Notes: generated from the letters alone by a model not told the origin. 64,000 bases of DNA from Balneolaceae bacterium (GCA_009711805.1 VEMX01000028.1:59307-123306), one strand, 5' to 3'. Shown: positions 1,942 through 57,942, counted from the stretch's first letter. Translations and numbers: made by a program.

Positions 1942-1961
1942 AAACACTTTACATAAACTTT

Positions 1962-1991
1962 CACAGGTGTTTTGAAAGGCACCTGTGTTTT
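1962..1991 (+). terminator. Intrinsic terminator-like hairpin after the CBM/T9SS gene
   Basis: cacaggtg (1962-1969) pairs perfectly with cacctgtg (1980-1987) across a 10-nt loop, followed by tttt. It lies 21 nt after the stop at 1941. Confidence 0.6.
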
Positions 1992-3022: not shown

Positions 3023-3032
3023 AGGAACCCCT

Positions 3033-5927: not shown

Positions 5928-5935
5928 GTCCGAAT

Positions 5936-8320: not shown

Positions 8321-8331
8321 GACCAAATTTA

Positions 8332-9702: not shown

Positions 9703-9725
9703 AACAGCATAATCCGGAGTCGTCT

Positions 9726-42643: not shown

Positions 42644-43765
42644 TTATCTGATACTAATACCAATTCCGGCATTAGCCGTGAAATATTCGGCAAGGGTAGC
42701 TTCACCATAGATAGCTAAAAATCCAAGTTTGAGTCGAAATCCACCCAAAAGATGAGCATTTGATTCACTGTCAATTTCAAATGAGATGGGATCTTGCAAT
42801 ACAATATAATCCTGGGTAACAGTAGTGGGATTAAACGATGGTACCGGGTAGTCGCCCTCAATATCGAGCTCAAATGTAGCTTTTTGAAAACCAATACCGC
42901 CATACACAGATATCAGTGGCAGGGACTTGCCCACCAAGGCATTAAAGACAAACGTATTAGTGGTTGCGGTAACAAGCTGAGAACTAAAATCAGGGTTGGG
43001 ATTAGAGACTAATGAGGGATCATTTGGATCTCTTGTAGCCGACGGTGAAGGGGGTAAACTGAGGTCTCCATCCATATTCATTTGAGTAAAGCCCACCATT
43101 AGCGAAATATCAACCGGAAGAAGTTTATCACCAGGCAGCCACTGGGTAATATCATGTTTGATGGCTCCCCCCAACAGTCCAATACTTCCATAATTTCCAA
43201 TATCTGTTTCAGGCACAAATCGTGCTGTTATATCAGTTCCCTTCATGAGGCCTAGTCCAGCTTGTACAATAGGGGCAGGAACAACAGGCAAACCTGTACC
43301 TCCCGGCATATTAAACTGACCAAGTTCATTGCGGTTTGGATCATCAGGATCATCATAGATTTTTAAGAGAGGGCCGTCATCATTACTTCCCGCTATGGTC
43401 TGGGTAACGGGATTCCCTCCCTGGGCAACATTAATTTTTTGAAGGGTCAGGGCAGAAATATCAAATTCCCGGGCCGAGGAGGGGACAAAAGCAAGAGAAG
43501 AGCGTATCTGAAGACTCAATCCCAACGTCTTCTTGGGTGCTGCTGTCTCGGTCCAACCAGCGTTTAAACCTGTACCAAAGCCTGTTGGAAAAGGCTTTAA
43601 GTATTCTTTTGTCAATAAGGTAGCATCTTCTTTTCCTGCCCTTAAAAAAGCACCAACACTGGTAAACTGTGCTGCAACAGGGGCAATACTTAACAGAGTA
43701 ATAAGAACTGTTAACGCAAAACTCTTGGCAGTGGGGGAGTAATTCTCTTTCATGACGATCCTCAA
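42644..43765 (-). CDS. Predicted outer-membrane beta-barrel protein of unknown function
   Basis: Signal peptide (MKENYSPTAKSFALTVLITLLSIAPVAAQ if the start is 43753). Alternating amphipathic beta-strand pattern rich in G/T/N. No recognisable family motif. Confidence 0.55.
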   Translation of the reverse strand: MRIVMKENYSPTAKSFALTVLITLLSIAPVAAQFTSVGAFLRAGKEDATLLTKEYLKPFPTGFGTGLNAGWTETAAPKKTLGLSLQIRSSLAFVPSSAREFDISALTLQKINVAQGGNPVTQTIAGSNDDGPLLKIYDDPDDPNRNELGQFNMPGGTGLPVVPAPIVQAGLGLMKGTDITARFVPETDIGNYGSIGLLGGAIKHDITQWLPGDKLLPVDISLMVGFTQMNMDGDLSLPPSPSATRDPNDPSLVSNPNPDFSSQLVTATTNTFVFNALVGKSLPLISVYGGIGFQKATFELDIEGDYPVPSFNPTTVTQDYIVLQDPISFEIDSESNAHLLGGFRLKLGFLAIYGEATLAEYFTANAGIGISIR

Positions 43766-46199: not shown

Positions 46200-47030
46200 A
46201 TGAAATATCCTATCCAAAAAAGGTATCAGTCTTTTAAAGAAAGGCGGAAGAAAAGAAAACAGATAAAACCGCCTACAAACAAACGAATAGCAGTCCCCAG
46301 TTTTTTTACGCTGATGAATCTGTTTAGCGGATTCCTGGCCATCATATCTATTTCGGATGGAGACTTGATACGCGGAGCCTGGCTTATTGCTTTAGCAGGC
46401 CTTTTCGATGTGTTTGATGGCCTGATGGCTCGCTTGGCCAATGCCACCAGCGACTTTGGTGTTGAACTGGATTCTATCTGTGATATGGTTTCCTTTGGTG
46501 TGGCTCCCGGTTTCCTGATATATTCATTTGGCTTGGAGAAACTGGGCTTTTTTGGAGTTATTGTGAGCGCCCTGCCGCCTTTATGCGGAGCTGTACGCCT
46601 GGCTCGTTTTAATGTAAATGCTCGTATTCTACCCCCGAAGGATCAATTTATTGGGCTGCCAATTCCAGCACAGGCCATTATGTTGTGTGCATTTGTACTT
46701 ACATTTAAAGATCAACTTGAATTGTTTTCCGTTTTTGAAAATGGAGTGACTACGGTGGTTATTCCAGTCGTTGTTGTTGTGTCATTCCTGATGGTAAGTA
46801 CCATTCCGTTTGATAAAATACCCCGTTTTGATCGCAAGACTATTCGGGAAAAAAAGGGACGTATTGTCCTGTTCATATGTTATTTATTGTTGATTCTGCT
46901 ACTGCAGGAATATGGACTGATAGCAGTTTTTTCCATATTTATCTTCAAAGGTATCGTAGCCGGGGCCATTCGCTTTTTCAAAGGTGACTATGACATGTAT
47001 GGAGCCGAAGAGTTCCAGGATTATAGCTGA
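46200..47030 (+). CDS. pssA: CDP-diacylglycerol--serine O-phosphatidyltransferase
   Basis: CDP-alcohol phosphatidyltransferase motif DVFDGLMARLANATSDFGVELDSICD, plus multiple TM segments. Confidence 0.85.
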   Translation: MKYPIQKRYQSFKERRKKRKQIKPPTNKRIAVPSFFTLMNLFSGFLAIISISDGDLIRGAWLIALAGLFDVFDGLMARLANATSDFGVELDSICDMVSFGVAPGFLIYSFGLEKLGFFGVIVSALPPLCGAVRLARFNVNARILPPKDQFIGLPIPAQAIMLCAFVLTFKDQLELFSVFENGVTTVVIPVVVVVSFLMVSTIPFDKIPRFDRKTIREKKGRIVLFICYLLLILLLQEYGLIAVFSIFIFKGIVAGAIRFFKGDYDMYGAEEFQDYS

Positions 47031-48133
47031 TTCTCAATAATATCCCGAATCTTACGAGCAGCGTTGCCCTCTCCAAATACCGAAGAGGGAGGGGGTTGAT
47101 CAGCTGATCCTTTCAAAATGGTATTTGCTTCAGCAATAATTTTTTGGGTATCCGTGCCTGTTAAAATGCCCAGACCAGAATCAATAAGCTCTTGCCGTTC
47201 GGTTTCATTGCGGAGCACTAATACGGGCTTTCCAAGAGCAGAAGCTTCTTCTTGTATTCCACCCGAGTCTGTAAGAATAATGTCGGCTCGTTCAATGAGC
47301 TTAAGAAATGGCAGGTATCCGAGAGGGGATAACAGGTGGAAACGGGAATGATCTATTTTAACCTTACTTAGTGCCTGTTCTATTTTGGGATTTGGGTGCA
47401 TGGGAAAAATAACCTCAAGATGATCATGTTGGGTTAACAATTCCCGGATGGATTCAAAAATACGCTCCATTGGAGCGCCATGGTTTTCCCTGCGATGAGT
47501 CGTTAATAAAAGCAGATCCTGTTCCTCTGAAATATGGGATAGAATAGAAAGGGGTGAATCGTTAAAAGCATCCGAAGAACGAATTAAATTCAAGGCATCA
47601 ATAACGGTGTTACCAGTTACATAAATGGAATGGCTATTGATACCTTCATTCAAGAGGTTGTCTCTGTTTAAGGGGGTAGGGGCAAAGTGAGCAGTTGCAA
47701 TTTGAGAAATGAGCTTACGGTTCATTTCTTCCGGAAAGGGATCATACGGTTGATGGCTGCGAAGTCCCGCTTCAACATGCAAAACCGGAATTTGTAAGTA
47801 GTAAGCAGATATGGCAGTCAGGTAGCTGGAGGTGGTATCTCCCTGTACAATTATATAATCGGGGTTTTCGGCCTTAAGGTACTTTTTAAGTTTTGGAGTA
47901 AGGGCCTCGGTTAAATCAAACAGATCCTGTCCCTCCTTCATAACACGCATATCCAGGTCGGGGCTAAGTTCAAAGATATCCAGCATAGGCTTAACCAGCT
48001 CGCTATGCTGGCCGGTATGCAGAATGCGAATTTCATGGCTGCTTTGCTTCAGTTCTTTGATTACGGGGGCAAGCTTAATCACTTCAGGCCGGGTACCAAA
48101 AGAGATCAGTATTTTTTTTCTACTCATGGGCAA
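47021..48133 (-). CDS. wecB: UDP-N-acetylglucosamine 2-epimerase (non-hydrolysing)
   Basis: KILISFGTRPEVIKLAP, HVEAGLRS and LTDSGGIQEEA motifs. Confidence 0.92.
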   Translation of the reverse strand: MPMSRKKILISFGTRPEVIKLAPVIKELKQSSHEIRILHTGQHSELVKPMLDIFELSPDLDMRVMKEGQDLFDLTEALTPKLKKYLKAENPDYIIVQGDTTSSYLTAISAYYLQIPVLHVEAGLRSHQPYDPFPEEMNRKLISQIATAHFAPTPLNRDNLLNEGINSHSIYVTGNTVIDALNLIRSSDAFNDSPLSILSHISEEQDLLLLTTHRRENHGAPMERIFESIRELLTQHDHLEVIFPMHPNPKIEQALSKVKIDHSRFHLLSPLGYLPFLKLIERADIILTDSGGIQEEASALGKPVLVLRNETERQELIDSGLGILTGTDTQKIIAEANTILKGSADQPPPSSVFGEGNAARKIRDIIENQL

Positions 48134-49155
48134 AGCTGTTTATAAACATCTACAGTTTGTTTGGCTACCTGATTCCACCCAAAATGTTGAAGCAAGTGAT
48201 TCTTGAGGGTATGATCTGTGGGCTTGGCAAGGGCTTTTTGAATAGCCTCTGCCAATGATGCTTTTGAATTGGGGTTGATATACTCTGCAAAGTCGCGGAA
48301 ATACTCTTTGGTTCCTCCTTTTTCCGTGATAACAATACGCGCCCCCGCAAGAGCTGCTTCCATAGCTGCAATTCCAGGGGTTTCGAAGTAGGAAGGGAGT
48401 ACAAAAACGCGGGCTGCAGCATAGGCCGAAGCAAGCATATCAGAAGAATGATCCAATGTTTTAATAAGTTGTACATGATCTGCTTTGTCAGCCAGTTTTC
48501 TACACTTTTGGCCGTATTCATTATCAGCAAAAGAGCCAATAATAACGATAGGGGTTTGAAATGTGTTTGCTGTTTCAAGCAGCATGTGCACGTTTTTGCG
48601 TGGTGCACCTGCATCACCTGCAAAAAGAATAAAATCATTCACACCATATGTTTTTGAAAATAAATCATCACTGGCTTCCGCAAACCGTTTTTCTACTCCA
48701 TTGGGAACGACCGTTATTGCAGAAGAATGAACTGAGAACCCTTTTTCCACCATTGAGGCCTCTTCAAGTGTATTAGGTACAACATGGTTTGCCATTTGGC
48801 ATATCTGCGCCTTAACGCTAAAATCAGAGCGAATACCGGAGCCCAGAAAGTGGGTTAACAACTCAAGATTTATGGAGAGTTTTATGGTTGAGGCACTACG
48901 GTTCGAAAAAAATACGGGAGAAACAACAAAAGGTATTTCCAGAGCCTGAAGGTTCTTGGCAATGCCTATATTTTCAACGGTAGCACCAAAAATATGGACC
49001 AGGTCCGGCGGTCGGTTTTCAATGGAGGTCCAGGGGGTAATTTCCTGAGTGTTTACACCCAGTTTTTTAACCTCACCTATAGTACACAATGCCTGGTTGC
49101 GTAAGCCTCCATTTACGGCTGCAATACTCATAGGTGCTATATAACCTACCTTCAT
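48124..49155 (-). CDS. GT4-family (GT-B) glycosyltransferase
   Basis: C-terminal EX7E-type region VLPSYFETPGIAAMEAALAGARIVITEKGG. Confidence 0.85.
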   Translation of the reverse strand: MKVGYIAPMSIAAVNGGLRNQALCTIGEVKKLGVNTQEITPWTSIENRPPDLVHIFGATVENIGIAKNLQALEIPFVVSPVFFSNRSASTIKLSINLELLTHFLGSGIRSDFSVKAQICQMANHVVPNTLEEASMVEKGFSVHSSAITVVPNGVEKRFAEASDDLFSKTYGVNDFILFAGDAGAPRKNVHMLLETANTFQTPIVIIGSFADNEYGQKCRKLADKADHVQLIKTLDHSSDMLASAYAAARVFVLPSYFETPGIAAMEAALAGARIVITEKGGTKEYFRDFAEYINPNSKASLAEAIQKALAKPTDHTLKNHLLQHFGWNQVAKQTVDVYKQLCP

Positions 49156-50690
49156 AAACGAATCCTGTTTTTCCAGTCCAGAAGAGTCGTCTTCAACAGA
49201 CTTAGGTTTCTTTTCTTCATGTGCTTCATTTCTTCGATGGAGGGAAGATAGGGTAAAGAATATTCAAATTCGGGGGAATCGGTTAAGGGGTATTCTTTTT
49301 TTGATACAGGAACAAGGTCAAATGTTGTATGCGAGGTGGATACCTGTAAAAACAGATTAGAAGAGAGCTGCCGGCTTTGTATATGGATGGTATCATCTTC
49401 AAAACTTAGCTTAGATGTTGTAGTGTTTCTTTTTCTCCAAAAGCGGGCATATTCCTGGAAAGTTAAATTGGTGAGATCATGGTCACGACTGAGTTTGAAA
49501 AGATGTTCAACGGCAGACAAGCCTGGCTGCATGGGGTGATGATACATCGAAACCGGTTTAAAGCGGCTGCACTTATTGTTGAATACGTATTCAAAATATG
49601 AGGCCATATCCTTTTCCGATACCTGTTGACGCCTCAGGCTACCGGTACAAATGGGGTGGACAGGAAGCTGAAGGGGCAGCCCGGCTTTGGCATGCCCGAG
49701 TGGTAATCCGTCATATACAAAGGTAAACTCAGAGCTGTAACAGAATTTAAATTCACTTATGGCTTCCTTAAGAGCTTTGTTCCATATACCATATGGTGCA
49801 CAATACCCTTCAGAGTTAAATCCATTGGTCAGCAATAAGTTATGAGCTTCACCTATATTCTTGATCACACTGTCATAGGAGGTAGAAGTTCCATGCTTAT
49901 AGCCATGAAGGGCAATTTCCTGGTCATCCCAGTCTTTGAAATGTTCCAGCCAATCTTCATGAGCTTTAACATGCATAAACCAGCTCAACGATAGTTCGTA
50001 GTTTCGGGCCTGTTCGAGAATATTATCCATCGATTTCGGAGTTCCGTAATCACTGTCTATTCTAAAACTGAAGACTGCTTGCTTCCGGGGCGAATGCCAT
50101 TTACAAACAAAGGGTAGGGTTTGTTTGAAATGTAATTCCCGGAGTACTGCGATAACAAGTTCCGAGAGTTCTTCTTTGGATACGGCTGAAACAAGTTCAT
50201 CGGGATTGCCCCCGGATGGATTGAAAAAACGTTTACGAATATAGTGTGCGTTTTGCATTAACGCAGCGGCTTCACATCCAAAATGAGCAGCATATCCTCC
50301 ATTCAACTCTGTAATGTGAATTAGTCCGCCGAACAGGCTCTGATCGTGGTGTAAATTTACTTTTGTATGTAGATCTACCCCCCGTATGTGTTGAAAAGCC
50401 GGGTGATCGGAAGTGTTGAAGAGCGAACTTCTAAAGGAGTATTCGGTAGACGAACGGCTAAAGAAAGTATGCGCATCTCCGGTTTCGAGCAGGCCCCCTC
50501 CCAGTTGGAGGTAGGCTGAAAGCTGTTGGCTATGTTCTTTTTCGGCCTGCCGGTTCAGAATAATGACTGAATAACTGGTAAATAGTTCTTTTTGGTAATT
50601 AATCTCTTCAAACCAAACGCCTATTTGTTCCAGAAGGCACTTCCAGGAAGGGGTTAAATCGTGTATGCCTATGCAAAGTTGTCTGCTCAT
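49152..50690 (-). CDS. Cytoplasmic two-domain protein with an unknown N-terminal domain and a CE4 (NodB)-like polysaccharide deacetylase domain
   Basis: No signal peptide. FRIDSDYG (Asp-Asp-type motif 1) and IALHGYKHG (H-x3-H motif 2) resemble CE4 metal and catalytic motifs. The N-terminal roughly 200 aa is unassigned. Confidence 0.55.
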   Translation of the reverse strand: MSRQLCIGIHDLTPSWKCLLEQIGVWFEEINYQKELFTSYSVIILNRQAEKEHSQQLSAYLQLGGGLLETGDAHTFFSRSSTEYSFRSSLFNTSDHPAFQHIRGVDLHTKVNLHHDQSLFGGLIHITELNGGYAAHFGCEAAALMQNAHYIRKRFFNPSGGNPDELVSAVSKEELSELVIAVLRELHFKQTLPFVCKWHSPRKQAVFSFRIDSDYGTPKSMDNILEQARNYELSLSWFMHVKAHEDWLEHFKDWDDQEIALHGYKHGTSTSYDSVIKNIGEAHNLLLTNGFNSEGYCAPYGIWNKALKEAISEFKFCYSSEFTFVYDGLPLGHAKAGLPLQLPVHPICTGSLRRQQVSEKDMASYFEYVFNNKCSRFKPVSMYHHPMQPGLSAVEHLFKLSRDHDLTNLTFQEYARFWRKRNTTTSKLSFEDDTIHIQSRQLSSNLFLQVSTSHTTFDLVPVSKKEYPLTDSPEFEYSLPYLPSIEEMKHMKKRNLSLLKTTLLDWKNRIRL

Positions 50691-52090
50691 TACCAGAGTT
50701 TACTTTTTATCCATCGAATTTGTGATTCTTCAAGCAGGTTGAATTTAAAAATGAGTAACAGGAATACCGGAGCAGCAATTACTGCACTTACAATTTGTGG
50801 CCCCGGCATGTATAAGCTCCCCAAAAAAAGTAAAAAAGCAGCCGGATAGCAAAGAAGTAATGGCCGAATAAAGTTAATCTGAATGGCTTGCTTAAACTTC
50901 CAATAAGTGAAAACTGTAATAACAATTTCTGCTATTGATACAGAAAGAGCCGCTGAAATAACATTCCCGAAATAGGTCATTACAAGAATAATGAACCCGG
51001 CTATGGTTCCCCCGCTTACCATGGCTGTAAAGTAGTCGTGATCTTTATTGGTGGCTATCAATCCAAAAGAAAAAAGACTGTTGATGAAGGTGACGGCTAT
51101 TAATACCGAAAGTACCTGAAGCAGTATGATGCTCTGCACATATTCTGGATTAAACAGAAGCTCGATGATATGATTGGCGCATATGGCAATAATCATGGCT
51201 ATAAATGCTCCACCGGCCGCTACCAGGCGGTACACTGTATCGATGCGTAAAACAGCGGTGGTTTTGTCTACGCTCCATAGAGTAGATAGATTGGGTAAGA
51301 GAATATTTACAAATACACGGTCTATCAGCATCGCAATAATGACAATTTTGAAAGCGACCCCATATTCTCCAGCAGCATTCAGTGAAAGAATGGCGCCAAT
51401 AGCCAGGGGAGGAAGGAGCTGAATCATTTGTCCAAAAAACCGGCCTGTACCGAGCAGAGAACTGCTTTTTATTAAATCCTGGTAAATATGGATGCCGCGG
51501 GTAGGAAGAGCAAAAGGCTTACTGCTGAAAGCAAAGCCGGCGAGAATGAGAGACGCTGTAGCAATACCTATGGTATACAGATAGGGAACCAGGGTAATGT
51601 CTTCGGCGGTTTGTATAAAAATGATAACCAGGCTAAAATAAGCAGCACCATTTAAAATTTTGGAGAGGGCTATTTTTCCAAATTCCTGTTTCCCTGCATA
51701 GAACCAATCTAACAGAAGTACATAGGGGATTATAGAAAACAGGTAGCTCAGTACCACCTGTTTTTGGAGGTCTTCCAATTCGATGAGATATACCGCACCG
51801 GAAGCGAATACAAGAACGATGATACCCAGAAATAAACGGGTTCTGAATATTTCTGTAATCCTGAACAGCCGTTTCTCTGGTGGTTTAGCTGTCTCCCGGG
51901 TTCCCATATTGATCAACCCCAGATCAGAAAACCAGGTAGCATACCCCAGGATGGAAATAGCAACCGTGATTAAGCCATAATATTCTTTTCCCAGGGTGTT
52001 GGCCAGGTATAAAGAAGTAAAGAAAGCAAAGCCGCGCCCCACAATATCGCCGGTAAATATCCAGAAAGCTTTGTGCTTGAGTTTATTCAT
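50690..52090 (-). CDS. MOP-superfamily polysaccharide flippase (Wzx-like)
   Basis: Polytopic protein with about 12-14 TM segments. Start taken at ATG 52090 (MNKLKHKAFW), which overlaps the stop of the upstream gene (ATGAATAA). The tracked ORF extends to 52159. Confidence 0.8.
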   Translation of the reverse strand: MNKLKHKAFWIFTGDIVGRGFAFFTSLYLANTLGKEYYGLITVAISILGYATWFSDLGLINMGTRETAKPPEKRLFRITEIFRTRLFLGIIVLVFASGAVYLIELEDLQKQVVLSYLFSIIPYVLLLDWFYAGKQEFGKIALSKILNGAAYFSLVIIFIQTAEDITLVPYLYTIGIATASLILAGFAFSSKPFALPTRGIHIYQDLIKSSSLLGTGRFFGQMIQLLPPLAIGAILSLNAAGEYGVAFKIVIIAMLIDRVFVNILLPNLSTLWSVDKTTAVLRIDTVYRLVAAGGAFIAMIIAICANHIIELLFNPEYVQSIILLQVLSVLIAVTFINSLFSFGLIATNKDHDYFTAMVSGGTIAGFIILVMTYFGNVISAALSVSIAEIVITVFTYWKFKQAIQINFIRPLLLCYPAAFLLFLGSLYMPGPQIVSAVIAAPVFLLLIFKFNLLEESQIRWIKSKLW

Positions 52091-53099
52091 GGCGGTTTCG
52101 TTGTATTTCCTGCAGAAGGATATCTTCAAGTGGGTCATCAGGGGTAAACAGACGTACATCGGGATGTGAAGATAGTTCGGAAATACATCCTTTATCGGGG
52201 GCCAAGATTCTTTTTTTGTAACTCAGCGCCAAATGCACGCCGCCTGAGGTTAAAATATCCCGATAGTTGAATACACACAGGTCTGTGGCATTATAGAACC
52301 AGGCAACATGCTCTTCTTGTATGAAATGAGGGATAACCAACAACCGGTCTGATGTTTGCTGTAAATTCACCAATTGTTTGTAGATTTTTTTATGCCCCTT
52401 TTTTACCGGTCCGGCTATAATCAGCTTAGCAGGCTCAGGTAATCTCAAAATAATCTGTGCAATTTCTCCCATTTGTTTGTAGCTGCTGATATTTCCAAAC
52501 ATAAGCAGTTTGGGTACTTCGGTATTAATATGGCAGTCATAGAAGTCGTTGATATTCTGAATGGCCGTTTCTTTTGAAAGCTGTTTCATAGGGAAAGATG
52601 GATGCGGACAGATGAAAAACTTATGGTCGGGAACTTTAAGTTTTTCTTTCATAATGTTGGCAGCTCTGCGGCAATGTACATGTAAGGCATCTGCCCAGCG
52701 GGCCATAACAGGGTGAAGCCAGCGATGGAATCCCAAAAATTTTCGATCGTGGGGCACTTCGTTATGGATCGTCCATACAATCTTACCGCCAAAGGTAACA
52801 AAGATGAAAATGCAAAGTAGTTTCCAGGGCATCCCCAAAAGGGATTTTAAACTCTGGAATTCCAGCCAATGGTAATGCAAGATAGCACCTTGATTCTGAA
52901 ATACCTGTAGTATCAGCTTGTAATGCTGAATGGCGGTGAGTGATTCAATCGTGTAGTCTTGGTGCTCTATAAGCTCTTTGTATAAAAGGTAGAGGTAATC
53001 TGAATCTTTGTTGGAATAGCGTATTAAAGGAACAACATATACCAACGATGCATCCGCGTCAAGGGAAGCATACACATCCTTAAGTGACTGTTCCTCCAT
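52083..53099 (-). CDS. Putative glycosyltransferase (GT-B-like, family unassigned)
   Basis: HYHWLEF...VWTIHNEVPHD resembles the N-terminal signature of several O-antigen/EPS GT1/GT4-like transferases. Supported by its position inside the glycan operon. Confidence 0.5.
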   Translation of the reverse strand: MEEQSLKDVYASLDADASLVYVVPLIRYSNKDSDYLYLLYKELIEHQDYTIESLTAIQHYKLILQVFQNQGAILHYHWLEFQSLKSLLGMPWKLLCIFIFVTFGGKIVWTIHNEVPHDRKFLGFHRWLHPVMARWADALHVHCRRAANIMKEKLKVPDHKFFICPHPSFPMKQLSKETAIQNINDFYDCHINTEVPKLLMFGNISSYKQMGEIAQIILRLPEPAKLIIAGPVKKGHKKIYKQLVNLQQTSDRLLVIPHFIQEEHVAWFYNATDLCVFNYRDILTSGGVHLALSYKKRILAPDKGCISELSSHPDVRLFTPDDPLEDILLQEIQRNRHE

Positions 53100-53114
53100 T
53101 TGTATCCCCTTTGC

Positions 53115-54056
53115 TTAGAATTTGTACTTAATTCCAATGGAATGTACAGTTCCAAATCCTGTATTGAAAGGGATTAATGCATAGTCGAATGTGATGGTCT
53201 CGGAATGTATGGAAGCGCCAAATGAGATGGGGCGCACACTGTTCTGTGTTTTGTACCCGGTGCTTACCGAGAGTACTTCTGCAACAGTAAATTCGAAGCC
53301 GAGGTTGAGGTGAGGATCAGGGCTGGTATAATTGGCGTAATCTTTATTATCGGTGCTCTGCAGTGGGTTTACATAGTCTACAGCTACAGAAAAAAGGATG
53401 GGAAGGTCATTATTTTTAGGGGGACTGAACTGAACAATATCTGCCGAAATACCCATCTTAAAATTGCTGGGTAGTTCAGTAGCTTCGTTATTTAGTTTTC
53501 CCATTTCACCAAGGTTGGAAAAGGAAACGCCGGTTCTGATTCTCTCATCAAGGAAATTACGGGCTATACCGAAGTTGAAGGCATATCCCGAAGCCCGGTA
53601 AGAATAGGCTTGTTCATTGAGGTATTGAGCCGTAGCCCCCAAGCTGAAGAGACTAAAATCGTAGGCATAAGCCGCGGAGACCGAGAGGTACTGAATAGAG
53701 AAATCCCCATTGGATGGTCCAGGTTGATTCCTTTGTTGATAATTGGAGCTTCCCGAAGAATAAAAGGAGAATGCAGCAGCTCTGCGATTACTTTTAAAAT
53801 TTACCCCTCCGAATACATTGTCAACATCGGCGATCCAGATTGAATATCCAAGATTTAAGGAAGAGGTCGGGTTCATGACCAATAAAGCCGGGTTTGAGAA
53901 CATGGAGGCGGCCCCATCCGGTACCGATGTAGTAGCCTCTCCTTTGGAAAGGGAAAACGGAGTAGGGGCTATATTCAACATTTCAAGGCCGGTGTCCTGA
54001 GCAAAAACAGGCTGGCCGATAACAATAAACAGTAAAAGTGCTAAGCTGATTCTCAT
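53115..54056 (-). CDS. PorV/PorQ-family outer-membrane beta-barrel protein
   Basis: Signal peptide ending VFAQ. N-terminal ..GEATTSVPDGAASMFSNPALL.. resembles the PorV/PorQ G-A-x-A...NPA motif. Ends in the aromatic residue ..GIKYKF. Confidence 0.65.
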   Translation of the reverse strand: MRISLALLLFIVIGQPVFAQDTGLEMLNIAPTPFSLSKGEATTSVPDGAASMFSNPALLVMNPTSSLNLGYSIWIADVDNVFGGVNFKSNRRAAAFSFYSSGSSNYQQRNQPGPSNGDFSIQYLSVSAAYAYDFSLFSLGATAQYLNEQAYSYRASGYAFNFGIARNFLDERIRTGVSFSNLGEMGKLNNEATELPSNFKMGISADIVQFSPPKNNDLPILFSVAVDYVNPLQSTDNKDYANYTSPDPHLNLGFEFTVAEVLSVSTGYKTQNSVRPISFGASIHSETITFDYALIPFNTGFGTVHSIGIKYKF

Positions 54057-55105
54057 ATGTTAAGTCGTAAAGAAAAAACGTGCATGTTAGAAATTCTATA
54101 GGGTTCCATCACAAAAGCATAGTCAATTGAAGGGGAAAATACATCAAAAGGCAGATGAATGGAAAATCCAGAGCTTAAAGCCCAGCTGTCTGAGTTGGAT
54201 GCATCCGGAAGCCGCCAGCCCCCTCTTAAGGTAAAACGTTCATGGGCATACCAGGAACCTCCTAATCTGAGTATAGCCGTAGCATTAGTAATAGTTTCCT
54301 CATCAACAAGTACGGTGGGCCTTCCCCGGCTTACAAATACATCTGCTTCGGATAATTCTGACTCAGTTACCAATAGTTCCAGCTCACCGGAGAGCGTAAA
54401 CTGCTGATTGTGGTAGGCAGCCCCCGCTTTTAATCGCGCAGGAAATTTGTTTACAACATTCTGAGACTGATCCAGGCTATATAATTCTTTAGAGTTCCAG
54501 CTGTAGGAAGCAAACAAATCCTGTACGGCAAGGCCTATGTTTAGCTGATCTGATGCTTTAAATAAGAAGCCGAGGTCGATGCCCACTGCTACAGGATTAT
54601 CCAGCTGCTGATGATAGTCGGCTATGCTGAATTTAATTCCTATACCCCCATTAAGCCTACTGCTGAAACGAATACCAAAATTGGTTAATAGCTGATACTC
54701 GGAAGCATCAAAATAACCGGTGTGATAACCACTTTGAGACCGACCATCTATATCCTGCACACCGGTTCGAAGGAGAGAAAAGGCAATGCCTGCCGATGGA
54801 GGCATTTGAAAGGAAGCACCTGCACTTTGGAATATCCGGTCGTAGCTAAGGGCGCCTACGGTCATATCTGCCTGGTTCGTTTCAGAAAATAAAGCAGCAT
54901 GTGCCGGATTATAGTACACAAAAGTTCCCTCAGAGGTAGAGGCAGTCATGGCGTTGGCCATAGCCAGGCTTCTTGCATTATATCCCATTCGCAGCGAGGC
55001 TCCGGTAAATCCACCCGTCTGTGCCAACACTTCTGTTGTAAACAGCAAAGCGCAAATAACAGCTAAAACTGAAGCAAATGGTATGTGTTTTGAAAAATAA
55101 TTCAC
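54053..55105 (-). CDS. PorV/PorQ-family outer-membrane beta-barrel protein (paralogue)
   Basis: Signal peptide ending VLAQ. ..ARSLAMANAMTASTSEGTFVYYNPAHAAL.. matches the PorV/PorQ-type N-terminal motif. Beta-strand periodicity throughout. Confidence 0.65.
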   Translation of the reverse strand: MNYFSKHIPFASVLAVICALLFTTEVLAQTGGFTGASLRMGYNARSLAMANAMTASTSEGTFVYYNPAHAALFSETNQADMTVGALSYDRIFQSAGASFQMPPSAGIAFSLLRTGVQDIDGRSQSGYHTGYFDASEYQLLTNFGIRFSSRLNGGIGIKFSIADYHQQLDNPVAVGIDLGFLFKASDQLNIGLAVQDLFASYSWNSKELYSLDQSQNVVNKFPARLKAGAAYHNQQFTLSGELELLVTESELSEADVFVSRGRPTVLVDEETITNATAILRLGGSWYAHERFTLRGGWRLPDASNSDSWALSSGFSIHLPFDVFSPSIDYAFVMEPYRISNMHVFSLRLNI

Positions 55106-56763
55106 TAATCGACCACCAAAATTTTCCCATTAATTTGTTTGCCGGGTACTTCAATAATATAAATATAGGGAGCGTTATTAACCTTGCTGCCTTTGCTGTC
55201 ATATCCGTCCCAAACGGCTTCATAAGTACCTGGAGAAAAAGAGTTGTTTTCAATTTCACGTACCAGGTTCATGCCAAAGTCATAAATTCCGATCTTAACA
55301 TTCCCGGATTTCGGAACTTCAAATTTTAGCCGTACTACTTCATGAGTAGAGGGGGAGAAAGGATTTGGGTATGCATAGCTCTCTACGTCCGGTGCCTCCT
55401 GATCATAGGCGTTGCCTCCGCTAAGCGGGAAGTTGGTTCGGATAATGTCCCAGCTGTTGCCCAGGTCTGAGGTGGATGCAATACCATCACTTGTACCCAC
55501 CCAAACCTTGTTCGTTGTTACAGCCAAAGAAAAGTGCCTGGCTGATGAACGAATAAATGTATTGGGGGATTTGATCCGGGATTGTTTGATCCAGCTTTTA
55601 CCTCTGTCGGGGGAAATAAAAAGCCCGTTATCGCCGGCGGCAAAAATGTAATCGCCTTTAAAATCTATATCGTTAATTCGTTCACCAATCAGGTGATGTT
55701 CAAAACTTTGCCCCCCGTCATTAGTGGAGACAACTCCAAATCCGGAAGCGTTATTACCTTCCGCAATCCAGTTTGTCATCCAGATGGTACCGGTTTGGGG
55801 ATCTTCATCAATTTCTATAATCCAGTTGCTAAGCAGTCCGTCTGAAGAGTTATCATAGGATATATGTCTCCATGAGATACTGTCAATGGGAGCCGTAAGG
55901 GCATTTTCCGATATATTGATGCCGGCCGCACTTCCATACCAAAGTCGGTCCTGGGAATCGATCAGTACGGAAAAACCCAGGAGGTTAAAGTCTCCCAATG
56001 GGTCGTACCGGTTTATGGTAGCAGTGTCAGTATCCTGAATGTCTTCATTGAAGAAAGTAAACCTGGAACTCCAAAAGTAGCTTCCTTCTGGGTGTAAAGT
56101 GGAGGCGTAGGATGGGGGAAGGATGACTCTTTCCCAACTATTTCCGAGATCCGTACTTCTGAGCAAGCCAGTAGCCCAAACAGCCGAAAAAACTGTATTC
56201 CCGTGTATATCGGTACTAAAGGGAACTGATTGCTGGGGCACAGTGATGCGTGTTCTGGTATACATGTTGCCGCCATACTGGAATATGATATCACAGTCGG
56301 GATCATAATCTTCAACTCCCATAGGTTGCTCATATTCCTCGCTGCTGGAAATACACCTATCAGGCGGTTTAGAGTCGAGAGGGAAATCGGAAAATCTCCA
56401 TGACGTTCCACCATCCGTACTAAAGTAGAAACCATAGCCTGTACTTACCGGCCCGGATATTTCGTTTTCGGCCGTAAAACCTAATCCGGCTACAATGGTA
56501 TCCCGCTTAAGAGCCATAGAGAAGGCGCGTCCCTTTCCGTTAATCACACTATCTGCATTTTCAGGACTGTACCAATTGGTTTCACCGTCAATCAGGCGAT
56601 TTAACTTGGGACTGACCCACAGGGTGTCTCCAAAAGCGGCCATAGAGCTCACACTATTTTGGCGAATACTATTAAAAGGAGAATTGACTGTTCCTGTAAT
56701 TTGGCTATAACCAAACGCAGGAGTGATTAAGTAAAAAATCAAAAAAGAAACAACGCTCTTCAT
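55105..56763 (-). CDS. BNR/Asp-box beta-propeller protein with a T9SS C-terminal sorting domain
   Basis: Five SxDxGxxW-type boxes (STDGGTSW, STDLGNSW, TNDGGQSF, SPDRGKSW, TSDLGNSW). C-terminal YAYPNPFSPSTHEV...APYIYIIEV..GKILVVD is a CTD. Confidence 0.8.
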   Translation of the reverse strand: MKSVVSFLIFYLITPAFGYSQITGTVNSPFNSIRQNSVSSMAAFGDTLWVSPKLNRLIDGETNWYSPENADSVINGKGRAFSMALKRDTIVAGLGFTAENEISGPVSTGYGFYFSTDGGTSWRFSDFPLDSKPPDRCISSSEEYEQPMGVEDYDPDCDIIFQYGGNMYTRTRITVPQQSVPFSTDIHGNTVFSAVWATGLLRSTDLGNSWERVILPPSYASTLHPEGSYFWSSRFTFFNEDIQDTDTATINRYDPLGDFNLLGFSVLIDSQDRLWYGSAAGINISENALTAPIDSISWRHISYDNSSDGLLSNWIIEIDEDPQTGTIWMTNWIAEGNNASGFGVVSTNDGGQSFEHHLIGERINDIDFKGDYIFAAGDNGLFISPDRGKSWIKQSRIKSPNTFIRSSARHFSLAVTTNKVWVGTSDGIASTSDLGNSWDIIRTNFPLSGGNAYDQEAPDVESYAYPNPFSPSTHEVVRLKFEVPKSGNVKIGIYDFGMNLVREIENNSFSPGTYEAVWDGYDSKGSKVNNAPYIYIIEVPGKQINGKILVVD

Positions 56764-57578
56764 TAGTTACCTCTGATTCGAAATGTAGTTCGTACTGTGT
56801 CGCTAATTAAATCTCCCTTATCTATAGCGAAGAATTCAATATCAAAATCCCGATCGGGATCCTCTTCGTTGGGAGGAACAGTTTGCGACCAGGTGAAAAC
56901 AAAGTCGTTGGCTGTTTCATCTTCATTGGTGGAGCCATCATCAGACATTAGGAATGGAGAACCTGTAACTTCGCCGGATGCCAGATTTATCACACGAATA
57001 AATACTCCTTTGATAGTACCCTGGCCGTCTCGATCGGTTACTTTTGCTGTGAATAGAGCTAATTTATCAGCTTCTCCCGGAGCAGGGCGGATGATCTCCT
57101 CGGGACTACTGGTCTCAATAATCTTTGGGGGATAGTTGGAAAAACCATCTATTTTGATGACAGTCTGTCCATAATTACCTCTGCCATCTTTCCCGATGGC
57201 AAACACACTTACTGTATATTCTTCAAAAGAGGTGGTCGAGGTTTCAATGTGAATTTCTGTTGAATATATATTGCTGTTCTCTAACTGGCTTAAAACGTCT
57301 TCTGCTACTGTTTCTCCAGAACTTCGATTTGTGAGTGCATACATTGGAGTGTGGCTTTCCTGTAAATATTCTAAGGTAGCCTCTATCGTAAATGTTAGAG
57401 TTGTGTCTTTAAAACCATGTTCCTCTTGAGTAAATACAGCAGTGGAAGGAGAGATCAGAATATCAGTTATTGTCGGAGGATCTGCTAATAAATCATCGGG
57501 CTGCCCGGTAGTATCACAGCTATAAAAAAAGCTACAGCCACTAATCAATATGAAAGTGAAGAGGAGTAGATGCTTCAA
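56763..57578 (-). CDS. Lipoprotein with tandem Ig-like beta-sandwich domains; first gene of the nine-gene operon
   Basis: Lipobox FILISGCS. Two repeats of beta-rich sequence, and no enzymatic motif. Confidence 0.6.
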   Translation of the reverse strand: MKHLLLFTFILISGCSFFYSCDTTGQPDDLLADPPTITDILISPSTAVFTQEEHGFKDTTLTFTIEATLEYLQESHTPMYALTNRSSGETVAEDVLSQLENSNIYSTEIHIETSTTSFEEYTVSVFAIGKDGRGNYGQTVIKIDGFSNYPPKIIETSSPEEIIRPAPGEADKLALFTAKVTDRDGQGTIKGVFIRVINLASGEVTGSPFLMSDDGSTNEDETANDFVFTWSQTVPPNEEDPDRDFDIEFFAIDKGDLISDTVRTTFRIRGN

Positions 57579-57723
57579 GTTTGTTTGGGATAAATTCTCT
57601 TTAGAAATTGGTGCTCTAATGGTACGGAACTGAGTATCTTTATTCCAATACGTTCTTGCAAAATATAAATTGCTAAAGAATTGGATTGCTTTTTCTTTAA
57701 GGGGCTTTTATATTCGGCGCGTT

Positions 57724-57798
57724 ATGATTACACAAAGTATTCAATTACAAAACTGGTGGTGGCCTTATGTTCAAAAGAACAGTGGGCGCTTTGCGTAG
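57724..57798 (+). CDS. trpL: trp operon leader peptide (24 aa) with three consecutive Trp codons
   Basis: atg att aca caa agt att caa tta caa aac tgg tgg tgg cct tat gtt caa aag aac agt ggg cgc ttt gcg tag translates to MITQSIQLQNWWWPYVQKNSGRFA*. Confidence 0.8.
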   Translation: MITQSIQLQNWWWPYVQKNSGRFA

Positions 57799-57857
57799 TT
57801 GAATAGCTAATAAAGAATTTACCAACCCACTGTTCCTCTGGAAGAGTGGGTTTTTTT
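57778..57857 (+). promoter_or_regulatory. Transcription attenuator with an antiterminator alternative and a terminator
   Basis: aacagtggg (57778-57786, inside the leader ORF) can pair with cccactgtt (57826-57834). The same cccact segment otherwise forms the terminator aacccact-g-ttcc tct ggaa-g-agtgggtt (57824-57852), followed by a T-run (57851-57857). trpE starts 86 nt downstream. Confidence 0.8.
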
Positions 57858-57942
57858 GTTTCCGGAGGTTGTGGTTGGTGTACCGGTTAATGATTATTTG
57901 TAAACCAGAACTCAACATCAATGTCTTCTGAGACCAACAATT

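What the first reader, a model, noticed from the sequence alone, without database searches (positions are those of the whole stretch)
47021..57578. Nine-gene, translationally coupled operon fusing glycan synthesis and flipping with two PorV-like barrels and a T9SS cargo propeller
On the minus strand, in transcription order, the operon encodes:
1. An Ig-like lipoprotein.
2. A BNR/Asp-box beta-propeller with a T9SS CTD.
3. A PorV/PorQ-like barrel.
4. A second PorV/PorQ-like barrel.
5. A GT-like protein.
6. A Wzx-like flippase.
7. A cytoplasmic CE4-like deacetylase fusion.
8. A GT4 transferase.
9. WecB (UDP-GlcNAc 2-epimerase).

Seven of the eight junctions are start/stop overlaps of 1, 1, 4, 8, 1, 4 and 10 nt. 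The remaining junction is a 15-nt gap.

No Wzy, Wzz or Wza, and no ABC exporter, is present. In Porphyromonas, T9SS cargo is anchored to an anionic LPS whose synthesis needs a Wzx-like flippase (PorS) and dedicated GTs. PorV shuttles cargo in that system.

A self-contained operon with a cargo protein, two PorV-type barrels and the enzymes for a ManNAc/GlcNAc-derived, possibly de-N-acetylated glycan suggests a dedicated surface-glycan or cargo-anchoring module. I do not recognise this module as a described system.
Basis: inference. Interest (0 to 1): 0.75.

Follow-up and report, generated by a model that had tools for sequence, protein, structure and literature searches.

The report
Conserved T9SS barrel–propeller and glycan operon
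A nine-gene operon kept intact across the Balneolaceae joins two PorQ/PorV-type outer-membrane barrels, a surface propeller with a type IX secretion tail and a lipoprotein to a small amino-sugar glycan pathway. It probably makes and presents the glycan that tethers secreted proteins to the cell surface, a pathway known so far only from Porphyromonas and Tannerella.

Summary
**Observation: confirmed.**
- Nine same-strand ORFs (47021-57578, minus) have the stated junctions, and eight have the stated families. The lipoprotein's Ig-like fold is unverified.
- The window comes from a Balneolaceae MAG.
- Both barrels are PorV/PorQ-family paralogues, not FadL.
- The propeller carries five Asp-boxes and a divergent T9SS C-terminal domain (CTD).
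- The "CE4 fusion" is a confident three-domain cytoplasmic deacetylase with intact metal and catalytic residues.
- g9 is true WecB.

**Conservation.**
- g1-g8 (± wecB) are collinear in about 65-78 species, down to 29-45% identity.
- The tight junctions are conserved, including where the flanking genes differ.

**Outside Balneolales.**
- Only a core of GT4, Wzx, CE4 and GT4 persists, in Ignavibacteriota, Calditrichota, Fidelibacterota and Cloacimonadota.
- In 7 of 7 Cloacimonadota-type loci, in two gene orders, this core sits with a WecA/WbaP-type initiating transferase and a PorZ-like gene.

**Best reading (about 0.45).** The operon makes a Wzx-flipped, partly de-N-acetylated ManNAc/GlcNAc oligosaccharide. 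This would serve as the T9SS anchor glycan, analogous to A-LPS and to VimE-VimF. The operon also encodes a PorQ-PorZ-like surface module that presents it.

- The propeller is not a PorZ family member.
- The operon lacks an initiating transferase, a ligase and a sortase.
- No function has been tested.

**Verdict.** An undescribed variant of a known kind. Interest 0.62.

The parts
56763..57578 (-). g1: 271-aa outer-membrane lipoprotein and first gene of the operon. No known family.
   Evidence: The signal peptide and Cys21-Asp22 are invariant in 17 orthologues. The only hit is a weak DUF7034 match, and there is no PDB relative. It is collinear with g2 in 65 loci, with a median gap of 0 nt.
55105..56763 (-). 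g2: 552-aa secreted single beta-propeller with five Asp-boxes, a conserved flexible linker and a divergent T9SS C-terminal beta-sandwich domain. Proposed PorZ analogue.
   Evidence: The AF2 model has pLDDT 85.6: propeller about 40-443, linker 444-472, sandwich 473-552. The top Foldseek hits are BT4673/BT4663 sensor propellers and PorZ 5m11, at rank 2. The CTD aligns with the type-A CTDs of cargo in the same window. It hits FlgD_ig, CHU_C and the PorU and PorZ C-termini, but not TIGR04183 or TIGR04131. The CTD is more conserved than the propeller.
54053..55105 (-). g3: 350-aa PorV/PorQ-family outer-membrane beta-barrel (barrel 1).
   Evidence: PorV_fam scores 78.1 bits (E 8.9e-22), PorV2 48.7 bits and PorQ 46.8 bits. 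All 20 of 20 orthologues hit PorV_fam and PorQ. It is a paralogue of g4 (hhalign 97.4%). Weak profile hits to PorV 6h3i and TbuX.
53115..54056 (-). g4: 313-aa PorV/PorQ-family outer-membrane beta-barrel (barrel 2), closest to PorQ.
   Evidence: PorV_fam scores 101.7 bits, above the 90-bit cut-off. The PorQ model scores 76.4 bits over its full length. All 19 of 19 orthologues hit PorV_fam and PorQ. The protein ends in a terminal Phe, typical of a beta-signal.
52083..53099 (-). g5: 338-aa divergent GT4 (GT-B) glycosyltransferase, cytoplasmic.
   Evidence: Weak Glyco_transf_4 hit. Orthologues hit Glycos_transf_1. The family profile hits GT4 structures including PglA, WaaG and MshA.
50690..52090 (-). 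g6: Wzx-type MOP flippase, 466 aa from the ATG at 52090. The longest ORF runs to 52159.
   Evidence: Polysacc_synt scores 75 bits. The gene caller in the source record also gives 466 aa. The 8-nt overlap with g5 is conserved in 70 loci.
49152..50690 (-). g7: 512-aa cytoplasmic three-domain protein. It has an N-terminal domain resembling part of GH42 glycosidases, a CE4 deacetylase core and a C-terminal beta-sandwich.
   Evidence: The AF2 model has pLDDT 94.5. Foldseek finds PdaC, HP0310, ArnD and WbmS for the core and GH42 for another part of the model, taken to be the N-terminal domain. D212, D214, H262, H266, P299 and H345 are invariant. There is no signal peptide. The family has 492 clusters at 50% identity; nearly all of the 150 listed are about 500-530 aa.
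48124..49155 (-). g8: 343-aa canonical GT4 glycosyltransferase with an EX7E motif. It is the most conserved member of the cross-phylum core.
   Evidence: Glycos_transf_1 scores 61 bits. It is 37-43% identical in Cloacimonadota, Ignavibacteriota and Fidelibacterota loci and always sits directly after g7.
47021..48127 (-). g9: WecB, the non-hydrolysing UDP-GlcNAc 2-epimerase that makes UDP-ManNAc. It is the last gene and is absent from the operon in about 37 of the 78 loci that have g8.
   Evidence: TIGR00236 scores 398.6 bits. It scores 290-305 bits against WecB/MnaA structures and about 150 bits against WbpI-type epimerases. It is missing downstream of g8 in many loci.
57579..57723 (-). Probable promoter region of the operon. 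This is the part of the divergent intergenic region not occupied by the trp leader on the other strand.
   Evidence: Inference only. The promoter scan is no better than shuffled sequence. It is the only sizeable non-coding stretch upstream of g1.

Best explanation
The operon couples two things. One is synthesis of a short lipid-linked amino-sugar glycan. [quoted passage not shown]

**Proposed steps**
1. WecB (g9) supplies UDP-ManNAc.
2. On an undecaprenyl-phosphate primer made by a transferase encoded elsewhere, the GT4 enzymes g5 and g8 add sugars.
3. The cytoplasmic CE4 enzyme g7 removes an N-acetyl group and exposes a free amine.
4. The Wzx flippase g6 moves the unit to the periplasmic face.
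5. No Wzy is needed. The unit is ligated to a lipid anchor, such as lipid A-core, and reaches the outer leaflet by the cell's general machinery.
6. The propeller g2 is exported by the T9SS and keeps its C-terminal domain. It stays docked on one of the paired PorQ-like barrels g3/g4, as PorZ does on PorQ, together with the lipoprotein g1.
7. g2 binds the glycan and presents it to the sortase. The sortase joins the C-termini of secreted proteins to the glycan, possibly through the exposed amine.

**Shown here**
- Gene content, families and folds.
- Intact CE4 active-site residues.
- Operon conservation.
- Linkage to PorZ-like genes in another phylum.

**Inferred**
- The substrate and its lipid carrier.
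- Retention of the CTD and docking on a barrel.
- Glycan binding by g2.
- Any role in cargo anchoring.
For: 1. Barrels g3 and g4 are PorV/PorQ family and fit the PorQ model better than the PorV model.
2. g2 is a propeller plus T9SS-type CTD, which is PorZ's general architecture. PorZ 5m11 is the second-best PDB match.
3. Like PorZ, the g2 CTD fits neither the type-A nor the type-B model (PMC10947112). It is more conserved than the propeller, as expected for a retained docking domain.
4. The organism has genuine type-A CTD cargo, so a T9SS is present.
5. g1-g8 stay collinear with overlapping junctions in 65-78 species, including where the flanks differ.
6. In 7 of 7 Cloacimonadota-type loci the homologous g7-g8-Wzx cluster contains a PorZ-like gene and a WecA- or WbaP-type initiating transferase. 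These loci show two different gene orders. NF052228 PorZ scores 159 bits, E 1.3e-46.
7. In P. gingivalis, the A-LPS-specific genes include a CE4 putative deacetylase (VimE) followed by a glycosyltransferase (VimF). Cargo is attached through an amine on the linking sugar (PMC7468200).
8. PorZ binds A-LPS and forms a subcomplex with PorQ (PMC8545088, PMC10947112).
9. g7 has no signal peptide and resembles ArnD, which acts on a lipid-linked sugar.
Against: - g2 is not a PorZ family member. It has one propeller rather than two, and profile similarity to PorZ-like proteins covers only the last blade and the CTD. The Foldseek hits are generic for propellers, with low TM-scores.
- The operon has no sortase, no initiating transferase, no ligase, no Wbp enzymes and no VimA.
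- g9 is WecB-type, not WbpI-type, so the sugar differs from the known linking sugar.
- In Ignavibacteriota, Fidelibacterota and Calditrichota the glycan core has no T9SS-type neighbour. The core may therefore serve a general LPS or glycosylation role.
- The flanking housekeeping genes are also syntenic across most Balneolaceae. Family-wide collinearity alone is therefore weak evidence of functional coupling.
- I could not test whether Balneolaceae also encode canonical PorZ, PorQ, PorU and PorV elsewhere.
- Orthology of g7 and g8 to VimE and VimF was not tested.
Confidence: 0.45

Rival explanations
1. g2 is an ordinary T9SS cargo protein, a surface glycan-binding or glycan-hydrolysing propeller. 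It has its own dedicated shuttle and anchor barrels, and it is itself the protein covalently anchored to the glycan the operon makes. The module would be private, one cargo plus its anchor, and not a general attachment device.
For: - g2 has a CTD homologous to type-A cargo CTDs.
- g2 has weak similarity to a BNR-type glycosylhydrolase family, NF045728, at E 5e-11, and to GH74 and Ycf48 propellers.
- Pairing of a CTD protein with a cognate barrel encoded next to it has a precedent recalled from the literature: type-B CTD proteins with PorP/SprF-like barrels. PMC10947112 discusses PG1035 with PorP and PorE.
Against: - The CTD, and the low-confidence linkers on either side of the propeller, are more conserved than the propeller. 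That is unusual for a signal that is cleaved off.
- The CTD misses both the type-A and type-B models.
- In Cloacimonadota the equivalent position holds a PorZ-like machinery component, not a cargo enzyme.
- The operon is a universal, single-copy core locus in the family, not a variable accessory one.
Confidence: 0.2
2. Two functionally separate modules are merely co-transcribed. g5-g9 make a housekeeping glycan unit, such as an LPS O-unit or core extension or a general protein O-glycosylation unit. g1-g4 are an unrelated T9SS-linked surface complex.
For: - The glycan core occurs alone in Ignavibacteriota, Fidelibacterota and Calditrichota.
- A GT9 heptosyltransferase-like gene replaces the first GT4 in some Cloacimonadota loci, which hints at LPS core chemistry.
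- The only non-overlapping junction is g4/g5, a 15-nt gap.
- Flanking housekeeping genes are also syntenic across the family.
Against: - The g4/g5 gap stays small in all 69 loci, at most 59 nt with a median of 14.
- The nine genes stay together where the flanks have changed (L081, L082).
- An independent physical link between the same glycan core and a T9SS attachment protein exists in Cloacimonadota, in two different gene orders.
Confidence: 0.2
3. The PorV/PorQ-like barrels are themselves the outer-membrane export or insertion route for a glycolipid or oligosaccharide made by g5-g9. This would use a FadL-like lateral gate. g1 and g2 would act as surface receptors or processing factors. In other words, a new glycan export pathway that stands in for Wza or Lpt.
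For: - No Wza, Wzc or ABC exporter is encoded in the operon.
- The PorV family is distantly related to FadL-type channels: weak profile hits to TbuX and to FadL.
- Two barrels are always present.
Against: - No member of the PorV/PorQ family is known to transport glycans. Their known role is binding CTD proteins (PMC10947112, PMC10994853).
- The Cloacimonadota, Ignavibacteriota and Fidelibacterota clusters have the same glycan core without any such barrel nearby. Export therefore does not depend on the barrels.
Confidence: 0.1

Closest known systems
Porphyromonas gingivalis T9SS attachment complex (PorU-PorV-PorQ-PorZ), in particular the PorQ-PorZ subcomplex
   Same: - It pairs a PorV/PorQ-family barrel with a surface protein built from a beta-propeller and a CTD-type beta-sandwich.
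[quoted passage not shown]
- PorZ binds the anchor glycan, A-LPS (PMC8545088, PMC10947112).
- g3 and g4 hit the PorQ and PorV_fam models. The g2 CTD likewise misses the type-A and type-B models.
   Different: - g2 has one propeller, not two. It matches the PorZ model only in the CTD.
- Here there are two barrels but only one CTD protein, plus an extra lipoprotein.
- No sortase is encoded in the operon.
- In P. gingivalis and C. hutchinsonii the por genes are dispersed and are not described as clustered with glycan genes (PMC11611037).
A-LPS linking-sugar (Wbp/Vim) pathway of P. gingivalis and T. forsythia: VimE (CE4), VimF (glycosyltransferase), PorS (Wzx), and the epimerase next to VimF in T. 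forsythia
   Same: - A CE4-family putative deacetylase is followed by a glycosyltransferase.
- A Wzx-type flippase is present.
- A WecB-superfamily 2-epimerase lies beside the transferase.
- De-N-acetylation exposes an amine on the sugar that links cargo (PMC7468200).
   Different: - There are no WbpA/B/D/E genes and no VimA acyltransferase.
- g9 is a true UDP-GlcNAc 2-epimerase, not a WbpI-type enzyme.
- g7 is a three-domain protein of about 510 aa belonging to its own family of 492 clusters.
- Orthology to VimE and VimF was not tested.
Cloacimonadota glycan cluster with an embedded PorZ-like gene (loci L079, L085, L086, L088, L090, L091, L092; found here, not described in the literature searched)
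   Same: - It has homologous g7 (26-30% identity) and g8 (37-42%), always adjacent.
- It has a Wzx flippase and extra GT4 enzymes.
- A T9SS propeller-CTD protein lies inside the cluster.
   Different: - The propeller protein is a PorZ-like protein of about 800 aa with Reg_prop repeats.
- An initiating transferase (WecA or WbaP type) is encoded in the cluster.
- No PorQ/PorV-like barrel, g1-like lipoprotein or wecB was seen within 10 kb.
Wzx/Wzy-dependent O-antigen or capsule loci
   Same: A MOP-family flippase, GT4 transferases and a nucleotide-sugar epimerase sit in one operon.
   Different: - There is no Wzy, Wzz, Wza/Wzc or initiating transferase.
- The locus is invariant and single-copy across a whole family, whereas such loci are typically hypervariable (general knowledge).
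- It is fused to T9SS-type outer-membrane genes.
Synthase-dependent Pel/PNAG systems (GT plus deacetylase plus outer-membrane porin plus lipoprotein)
   Same: Superficially, the parts list matches: a transferase, a CE4-type deacetylase, a MOP-like membrane protein, a barrel and a lipoprotein.
   Different: - The deacetylase is cytoplasmic, with no signal peptide.
- There is no GT2 synthase and no TPR-porin.
- The barrels are PorV/PorQ family.

Membership tests
PorV/PorQ family outer-membrane barrels (NCBIfam NF033709) | Full-length match to the family model at or above its curated cut-off of 90 bits | tested here: met
   g4 scores 101.7 bits over model positions 2-326 of 326. g3 scores 78.1 bits (E 8.9e-22), below the cut-off but full length. 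All 19 of 19 and 20 of 20 orthologues match.
PorQ (NF033711) or PorV (NF033710) equivalogs | Score above the equivalog cut-off (220 bits for PorQ, 250 bits for PorV) | tested here: not met
   g4 scores 76.4 bits on PorQ. g3 scores 46.8 on PorQ, 16.1 on PorV and 48.7 on PorV2 (cut-off 325). They are family members, not demonstrable orthologues.
   No Pfam or NCBIfam FadL hit for the window proteins. One of 19 g4 orthologues hits FadL at E 4.7e-4. TbuX appears at E 0.023 by profile.
PorZ (NF052228) | Two beta-propeller domains followed by a CTD, with a full-length match to the model | tested here: not met
   g2 has a single propeller. The PorZ model matches only residues 458-538, at E 0.0042. 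hhalign against PorZ-like proteins covers only the last blade and the CTD.
PorZ (NF052228) | [quoted passage not shown] | tested here: inconclusive
   There is no hit to TIGR04183 or TIGR04131 at E<0.1, whereas window cargo scores 49 and 43 bits on TIGR04183. Retention cannot be tested. High CTD conservation is suggestive.
PorZ (NF052228) | Binds the anchor glycan and docks on PorQ | not testable with these tools
   This needs binding assays or complex prediction. Only gene adjacency to PorQ-like barrels and glycan genes is shown.
T9SS C-terminal sorting domain | C-terminal beta-sandwich of about 80 aa homologous to known CTDs | tested here: met
   AF2 predicts a sandwich at 473-552. FlgD_ig scores 26.1 bits against a cut-off of 27, and CHU_C is also hit. 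The domain aligns with two type-A CTDs of the same window, sharing the YPNPF and GxYxY motifs.
CE4 carbohydrate esterase / polysaccharide deacetylase | NodB-type fold with the Asp-Asp and His-x3-His metal and catalytic motifs | tested here: met
   Foldseek finds PdaC, HP0310, ArnD and SpPgdA, with TM-scores normalised to the target of up to 0.8. D212, D214, H262 and H266 are invariant in 55 sequences. The Pfam score is below the cut-off, 17.8 against 23.1.
Wbp/Vim A-LPS linking-sugar pathway | WbpA/B/D/E enzymes and the VimA acyltransferase present alongside VimE and VimF | tested here: not met
   None of the nine proteins hits the dehydrogenase, aminotransferase or acetyltransferase families. 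The epimerase is WecB-type.
Wbp/Vim A-LPS linking-sugar pathway | g7 orthologous to VimE and g8 orthologous to VimF | not tested
   No VimE or VimF sequence was reachable with the tools. The resemblance is at the level of family and gene order, taken from PMC7468200.
Wzx/Wzy-dependent polysaccharide locus | Wzx together with Wzy polymerase, a chain-length regulator and an initiating phosphoglycosyl transferase | tested here: not met
   Only Wzx is present (Polysacc_synt, 75 bits). No other membrane protein is encoded in the operon.
WecB (TIGR00236) | Score above the equivalog cut-off, and closer to UDP-GlcNAc 2-epimerases than to WbpI or NeuC types | tested here: met
   g9 scores 398.6 bits against a cut-off of 210. 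It scores 290-305 bits against WecB/MnaA structures, about 150 against WbpI-type epimerases, and 91 on the NeuC model.

The most novel reading that the evidence does not exclude
This operon, together with its Cloacimonadota counterpart carrying a PorZ-like gene, identifies the T9SS cargo-anchoring glycan pathway outside Porphyromonas and Tannerella.

- A Wzx-flipped oligosaccharide carries a CE4-exposed free amine on ManN or GlcN. That amine serves directly as the nucleophile for sortase-type attachment of secreted proteins.
- The glycan is delivered by a previously unrecognised single-propeller PorZ analogue. This protein is held on a pair of PorQ-like barrels together with a dedicated lipoprotein.
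- Balneolaceae would then carry a compact, genetically linked 'attachment module'. The three-domain CE4 family, with 492 clusters, would mark this pathway across FCB phyla.
Probability: 0.3. Interest if true: 0.8.

Novelty: new variant of a known kind. Interest (0 to 1): 0.62.

Why it matters
**The open question.** How T9SS cargo is tethered to the cell surface is understood only in P. gingivalis and T. forsythia. There the glycan genes and the attachment-complex genes are scattered. For all other T9SS-bearing phyla, the anchor glycan and PorZ-type delivery are unknown.

**What the linkage offers.** A conserved physical link between a PorQ/PorZ-like module and a small, defined glycan pathway gives a concrete, testable candidate for that anchor system. 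Four results support the link:
- It is found in every Balneolaceae locus examined that spans the region.
- It recurs independently, with a PorZ-like gene, in all seven Cloacimonadota-type loci examined.
- The organisms include cultivable marine bacteria such as Gracilimonas tropica.
- The work defines a new three-domain cytoplasmic CE4 family that could serve as a genomic marker.

**If the link is only co-transcription.** The finding would reduce to a well-conserved but ordinary surface-glycan operon.

Tried and rejected
1. **PDB sequence and profile searches for g1, g3 and g4.** These gave nothing useful beyond weak PorV and TbuX hits.
2. **g2 as a true PorZ.** Rejected. Only the CTD and last blade are similar, and there is one propeller.
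3. **Pel/PNAG-like synthase-dependent system.** Considered because of the GT4, deacetylase, MOP protein, barrel and lipoprotein. Rejected because:
   - g7 is cytoplasmic;
   - there is no synthase and no TPR-porin;
   - the barrels are PorV/PorQ family.
4. **Glycolipid pathway (GlcNAc-lipid, then deacetylase, then flippase).** Suggested by generic GT4 hits to glycolipid synthases. It is not excluded. It is disfavoured because Cloacimonadota relatives carry WecA/WbaP-type undecaprenyl-phosphate transferases in the cluster.
5. **g9 as a WbpI-type epimerase of the Wbp/Vim pathway.** Rejected.
6. **Promoter and terminator scan.** Uninformative: promoter-like sites were no more frequent than in shuffled sequence, and no convincing internal terminator was found.
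7. **Rfam scan of the window.** No hits.
8. **Literature searches.** Searches for T9SS in Balneolaceae, PorV2, and porZ-glycan clusters found no description of this module.
9. **Horizontal transfer.** Operon GC of 0.42-0.45 matches its neighbours, so there is no sign of recent acquisition.
10. **Taxon names for distant g7 relatives.** Cluster look-up gave little: Calditrichota and 'Bacteroidota bacterium'.
11. **Could not be done.**
    - A whole-genome inventory of PorU, PorV, PorQ and PorZ in Balneolaceae.
    - A direct comparison with VimE and VimF.

Full report

Yes. Nine ORFs lie head-to-tail on the minus strand between 47021 and 57578.
- Overlaps of 1, 1 and 4 nt, then a 15-nt gap.
- An 8-nt overlap if g6 starts at the ATG at 52090. 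The gene caller in the source record also chose that start.
- Overlaps of 1 and 4 nt.
- A 10-nt overlap for a TTG start of g9. An ATG two codons downstream gives a classic ATGA 4-nt overlap and is more likely.

The window comes from a Balneolaceae MAG (locus tags FH748_08575 and FH748_08600). GC content across the operon (0.42-0.45) matches its surroundings.

**2. What are the nine proteins?**

- **g9** is WecB. It scores 398.6 bits on TIGR00236. It scores 290-305 bits against solved UDP-GlcNAc 2-epimerases and only about 150 against WbpI-type epimerases.
- **g8** is a canonical GT4.
- **g6** is a Wzx-type MOP flippase.
- **g5** is a divergent GT4. The window copy gives only a weak Pfam hit. 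Orthologues hit Glycos_transf_1, and the family profile finds PglA, WaaG and MshA structures.
- **g7** gives only sub-threshold CE4/DUF2334 hits.
  - The alignment-based AlphaFold model is very confident (pLDDT 94.5).
  - Its core superposes on CE4 enzymes such as PdaC, HP0310, ArnD and SpPgdA.
  - Another part of the model, taken to be the N-terminal domain, resembles GH42 glycosidases. A C-terminal beta-sandwich follows the core.
  - The Asp-Asp and His-x3-His motifs are invariant in 55 sequences.
  - It has no signal peptide.
- **g3 and g4** are paralogues (hhalign 97.4%) of the PorV/PorQ family.
  - g4 exceeds the family cut-off, and g3 falls just under it.
  - All 19 and all 20 orthologues tested hit both PorV_fam and PorQ.
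  - FadL appears once, weakly.
- **g2** has five Asp-boxes visible in the sequence.
  - Its model (pLDDT 85.6) shows one propeller at about residues 40-443, a low-confidence linker, and a C-terminal beta-sandwich at 473-552.
  - That domain is homologous to the type-A CTDs of two genuine cargo proteins in the same window.
  - It carries a FlgD_ig-like insertion and misses both the type-A and type-B models.
- **g1** is a lipoprotein with an invariant Cys-Asp and no detectable family.

**3. Is the arrangement more than chance?**

A genome-collection scan with the g7 family returned 80 loci. Mapping all nine proteins onto them gave the following:
- g1-g8 are strictly collinear in essentially every Balneolaceae locus that spans the region, down to 29-45% identity.
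- wecB is present downstream of g8 in 41 of the 78 loci that have g8.
- Median inter-gene distances over 41-78 species are 0, -1, -4, +14, -8, -4, -4 and -4 nt. The tight coupling is therefore itself conserved.

There is a caveat. The flanking housekeeping genes (anthranilate synthase upstream, a CDP-alcohol phosphatidyltransferase downstream) are also syntenic in most loci. Family-wide collinearity alone could reflect slow rearrangement. Against that, two more divergent loci keep g1-g9 intact although their flanks differ (L081, L082).

**4. What happens outside Balneolales?**

HMMs built from the orthologues, together with further look-ups, show that only a four-gene core survives: a GT4, Wzx, g7 and g8.
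- It is found in Ignavibacteriota-like, Calditrichota and Fidelibacterota contigs, with no T9SS-type neighbour.
- In Cloacimonadota-type loci the picture differs. All seven loci examined carry the following genes inside the same cluster:
  - two or three additional GT4 genes;
  - a WecA-type or WbaP-type initiating transferase;
  - a protein of about 800 aa made of Reg_prop propellers plus a CTD.
- These seven loci show two different gene orders (L079, L085, L086, L088, L090, L091, L092).
- The L079 copy of the propeller protein scores 159 bits (E 1.3e-46) on the PorZ equivalog model. That is below its 260-bit cut-off, but it is clearly PorZ-like.
- The initiating transferase in these relatives indicates an undecaprenyl-phosphate-linked oligosaccharide.
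- The g7 family comprises 492 clusters at 50% identity with E ≤ 1e-30. Nearly all of the 150 listed are about 500-530 aa.
- Named members come from FCB-group phyla.

**5. Comparison with what is known**

In P. gingivalis:
- Cargo is attached to A-LPS by the PorU sortase within an attachment complex of PorU, PorV, PorQ and PorZ.
- PorZ has two propellers plus a CTD. It binds A-LPS and forms a subcomplex with the PorQ barrel.
- The A-LPS-specific genes include VimE, a CE4 putative deacetylase. Directly downstream lies VimF, a glycosyltransferase.
- The amine-bearing linking sugar is the point of cargo attachment.
- In T. forsythia an epimerase gene lies next to vimF (PMC7468200).

The order g7 (CE4), g8 (GT4), g9 (2-epimerase), together with a Wzx, echoes this arrangement. 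That is a lead, not a test, because I could not obtain VimE or VimF sequences. The differences are clear:
- There are no Wbp enzymes and no VimA.
- g9 is WecB-type.

In the studied Bacteroidota the por genes are dispersed (PMC11611037). No paper in the searchable library describes T9SS in Balneolaceae or a por-glycan cluster of this kind.

**6. Best explanation and its limits**

I consider it most likely (about 0.45) that the operon does two things. It makes a Wzx-flipped, partly de-N-acetylated ManNAc/GlcNAc oligosaccharide that serves as the T9SS anchor glycan. It also encodes a PorQ/PorZ-like surface module (g1-g4) that binds and presents that glycan.

Support specific to g2 as a component rather than cargo:
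- Its CTD (63% mean identity) and the two low-confidence linkers are more conserved than the propeller (53%).
- A PorZ-like gene occupies the equivalent position in Cloacimonadota.
- PorZ 5m11 is the second-best structural match. However, TM-scores are low and generic propellers follow closely.

Evidence against:
- g2 fails the PorZ membership test. It has one propeller, and similarity covers only the CTD and last blade.
- The operon lacks a sortase, an initiating transferase and a ligase.
- The glycan core stands alone in three phyla.
- Nothing functional has been tested.
- I could not determine whether canonical PorZ, PorQ, PorU and PorV exist elsewhere in these genomes. The rest of the window is housekeeping, plus a starch-utilisation cluster with CTD cargo.

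Rival explanations:
- g2 as private cargo with its own anchor glycan: 0.2.
- Two unrelated modules that are merely co-transcribed: 0.2.
- The barrels acting as a glycan or glycolipid export route: 0.1.

**7. Verdict**

- The module is an undescribed variant of a known kind: a T9SS attachment and anchor-glycan system.
- It is of real interest to T9SS and cell-envelope specialists because it offers a compact, testable candidate for cargo anchoring outside the Bacteroidota models.
- Interest: 0.62.

Noticed in passing
window 57724-57860, + strand (between g1 and trpE): This looks like a classic trp attenuator. A 24-codon leader ORF, MITQSIQLQNWWWPYVQKNSGRFA*, carries three consecutive Trp codons. 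An antiterminator segment, GAACAGUGGG, is complementary to the 5' arm of a terminator hairpin (CCCACUGUUCC...GAGUGGG plus U7). All of this lies upstream of trpE, whose ATG is at 57943. The fold z-score is -3.2 and there is no Rfam hit. The TGGTGGTGG triplet recurs at the same intergenic position in about 50 of the Balneolaceae loci.
   Followed up: partly
window 136-13077, + strand: This is a starch/maltodextrin utilisation cluster. It has a LacI-family regulator, four GH13-type enzymes and a GPH symporter. Two of its proteins (136-1941 and the 964-aa amylase-family protein at 3033-5927) end in genuine type-A T9SS sorting domains (TIGR04183, 49 and 43 bits). They are natural reporter cargo for testing the operon's role.
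   Followed up: partly
L085:1169-2881, L079:1282-2988, L092:1551-3236: The type-I Cloacimonadota clusters begin with a cytoplasmic protein of about 570 aa that has no Pfam or NCBIfam hit. Its C-terminal part resembles g7 by eye (for example '...FMQIAQWWKKRE...' against g7 '...FQEYARFWRKRN...'). The three copies are 36-41% identical to each other.
   Followed up: no
L086:8835-10004, L090:8859-10004, L091:8859-10004: In type-II Cloacimonadota clusters, a GT9 (heptosyltransferase-like, LPS-core type) gene takes the place of the GT4 directly upstream of g7. A radical-SAM/SPASM gene precedes it. This hints that the glycan is connected to LPS core chemistry.
   Followed up: no
L060:342-2756 (Calditrichota MAG): A single 804-aa ORF matches both the g5 (GT4) and g6 (Wzx) profiles. 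It is either a real GT-flippase fusion or an assembly or frameshift artefact.
   Followed up: no
window 55105-56763, g2 residues 23-39 and 444-472: Two segments of the propeller protein are predicted with very low confidence (pLDDT <50). Yet they are among its most conserved parts, with column conservation of 0.71 and 0.74 against 0.65 for the propeller. One example is the motif NFPLSGGNxYD just before the CTD. They are likely partner-binding segments.
   Followed up: partly
window 47021-47030: The 3' ends of wecB (minus strand) and the convergent CDP-alcohol phosphatidyltransferase gene (46200-47030, plus strand) overlap by 10 nt. This leaves no room for a terminator between them. The neighbour is conserved in this position in about 70 loci.
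   Followed up: no
window 33971-34708 (-) and 42644-43765 (-): A PIG-L/LmbE-family de-N-acetylase (PF02585) and a DUF6588 protein lie elsewhere in the window. The first is a second, unrelated sugar de-N-acetylase candidate in the neighbourhood. Neither is linked to the operon.
   Followed up: no
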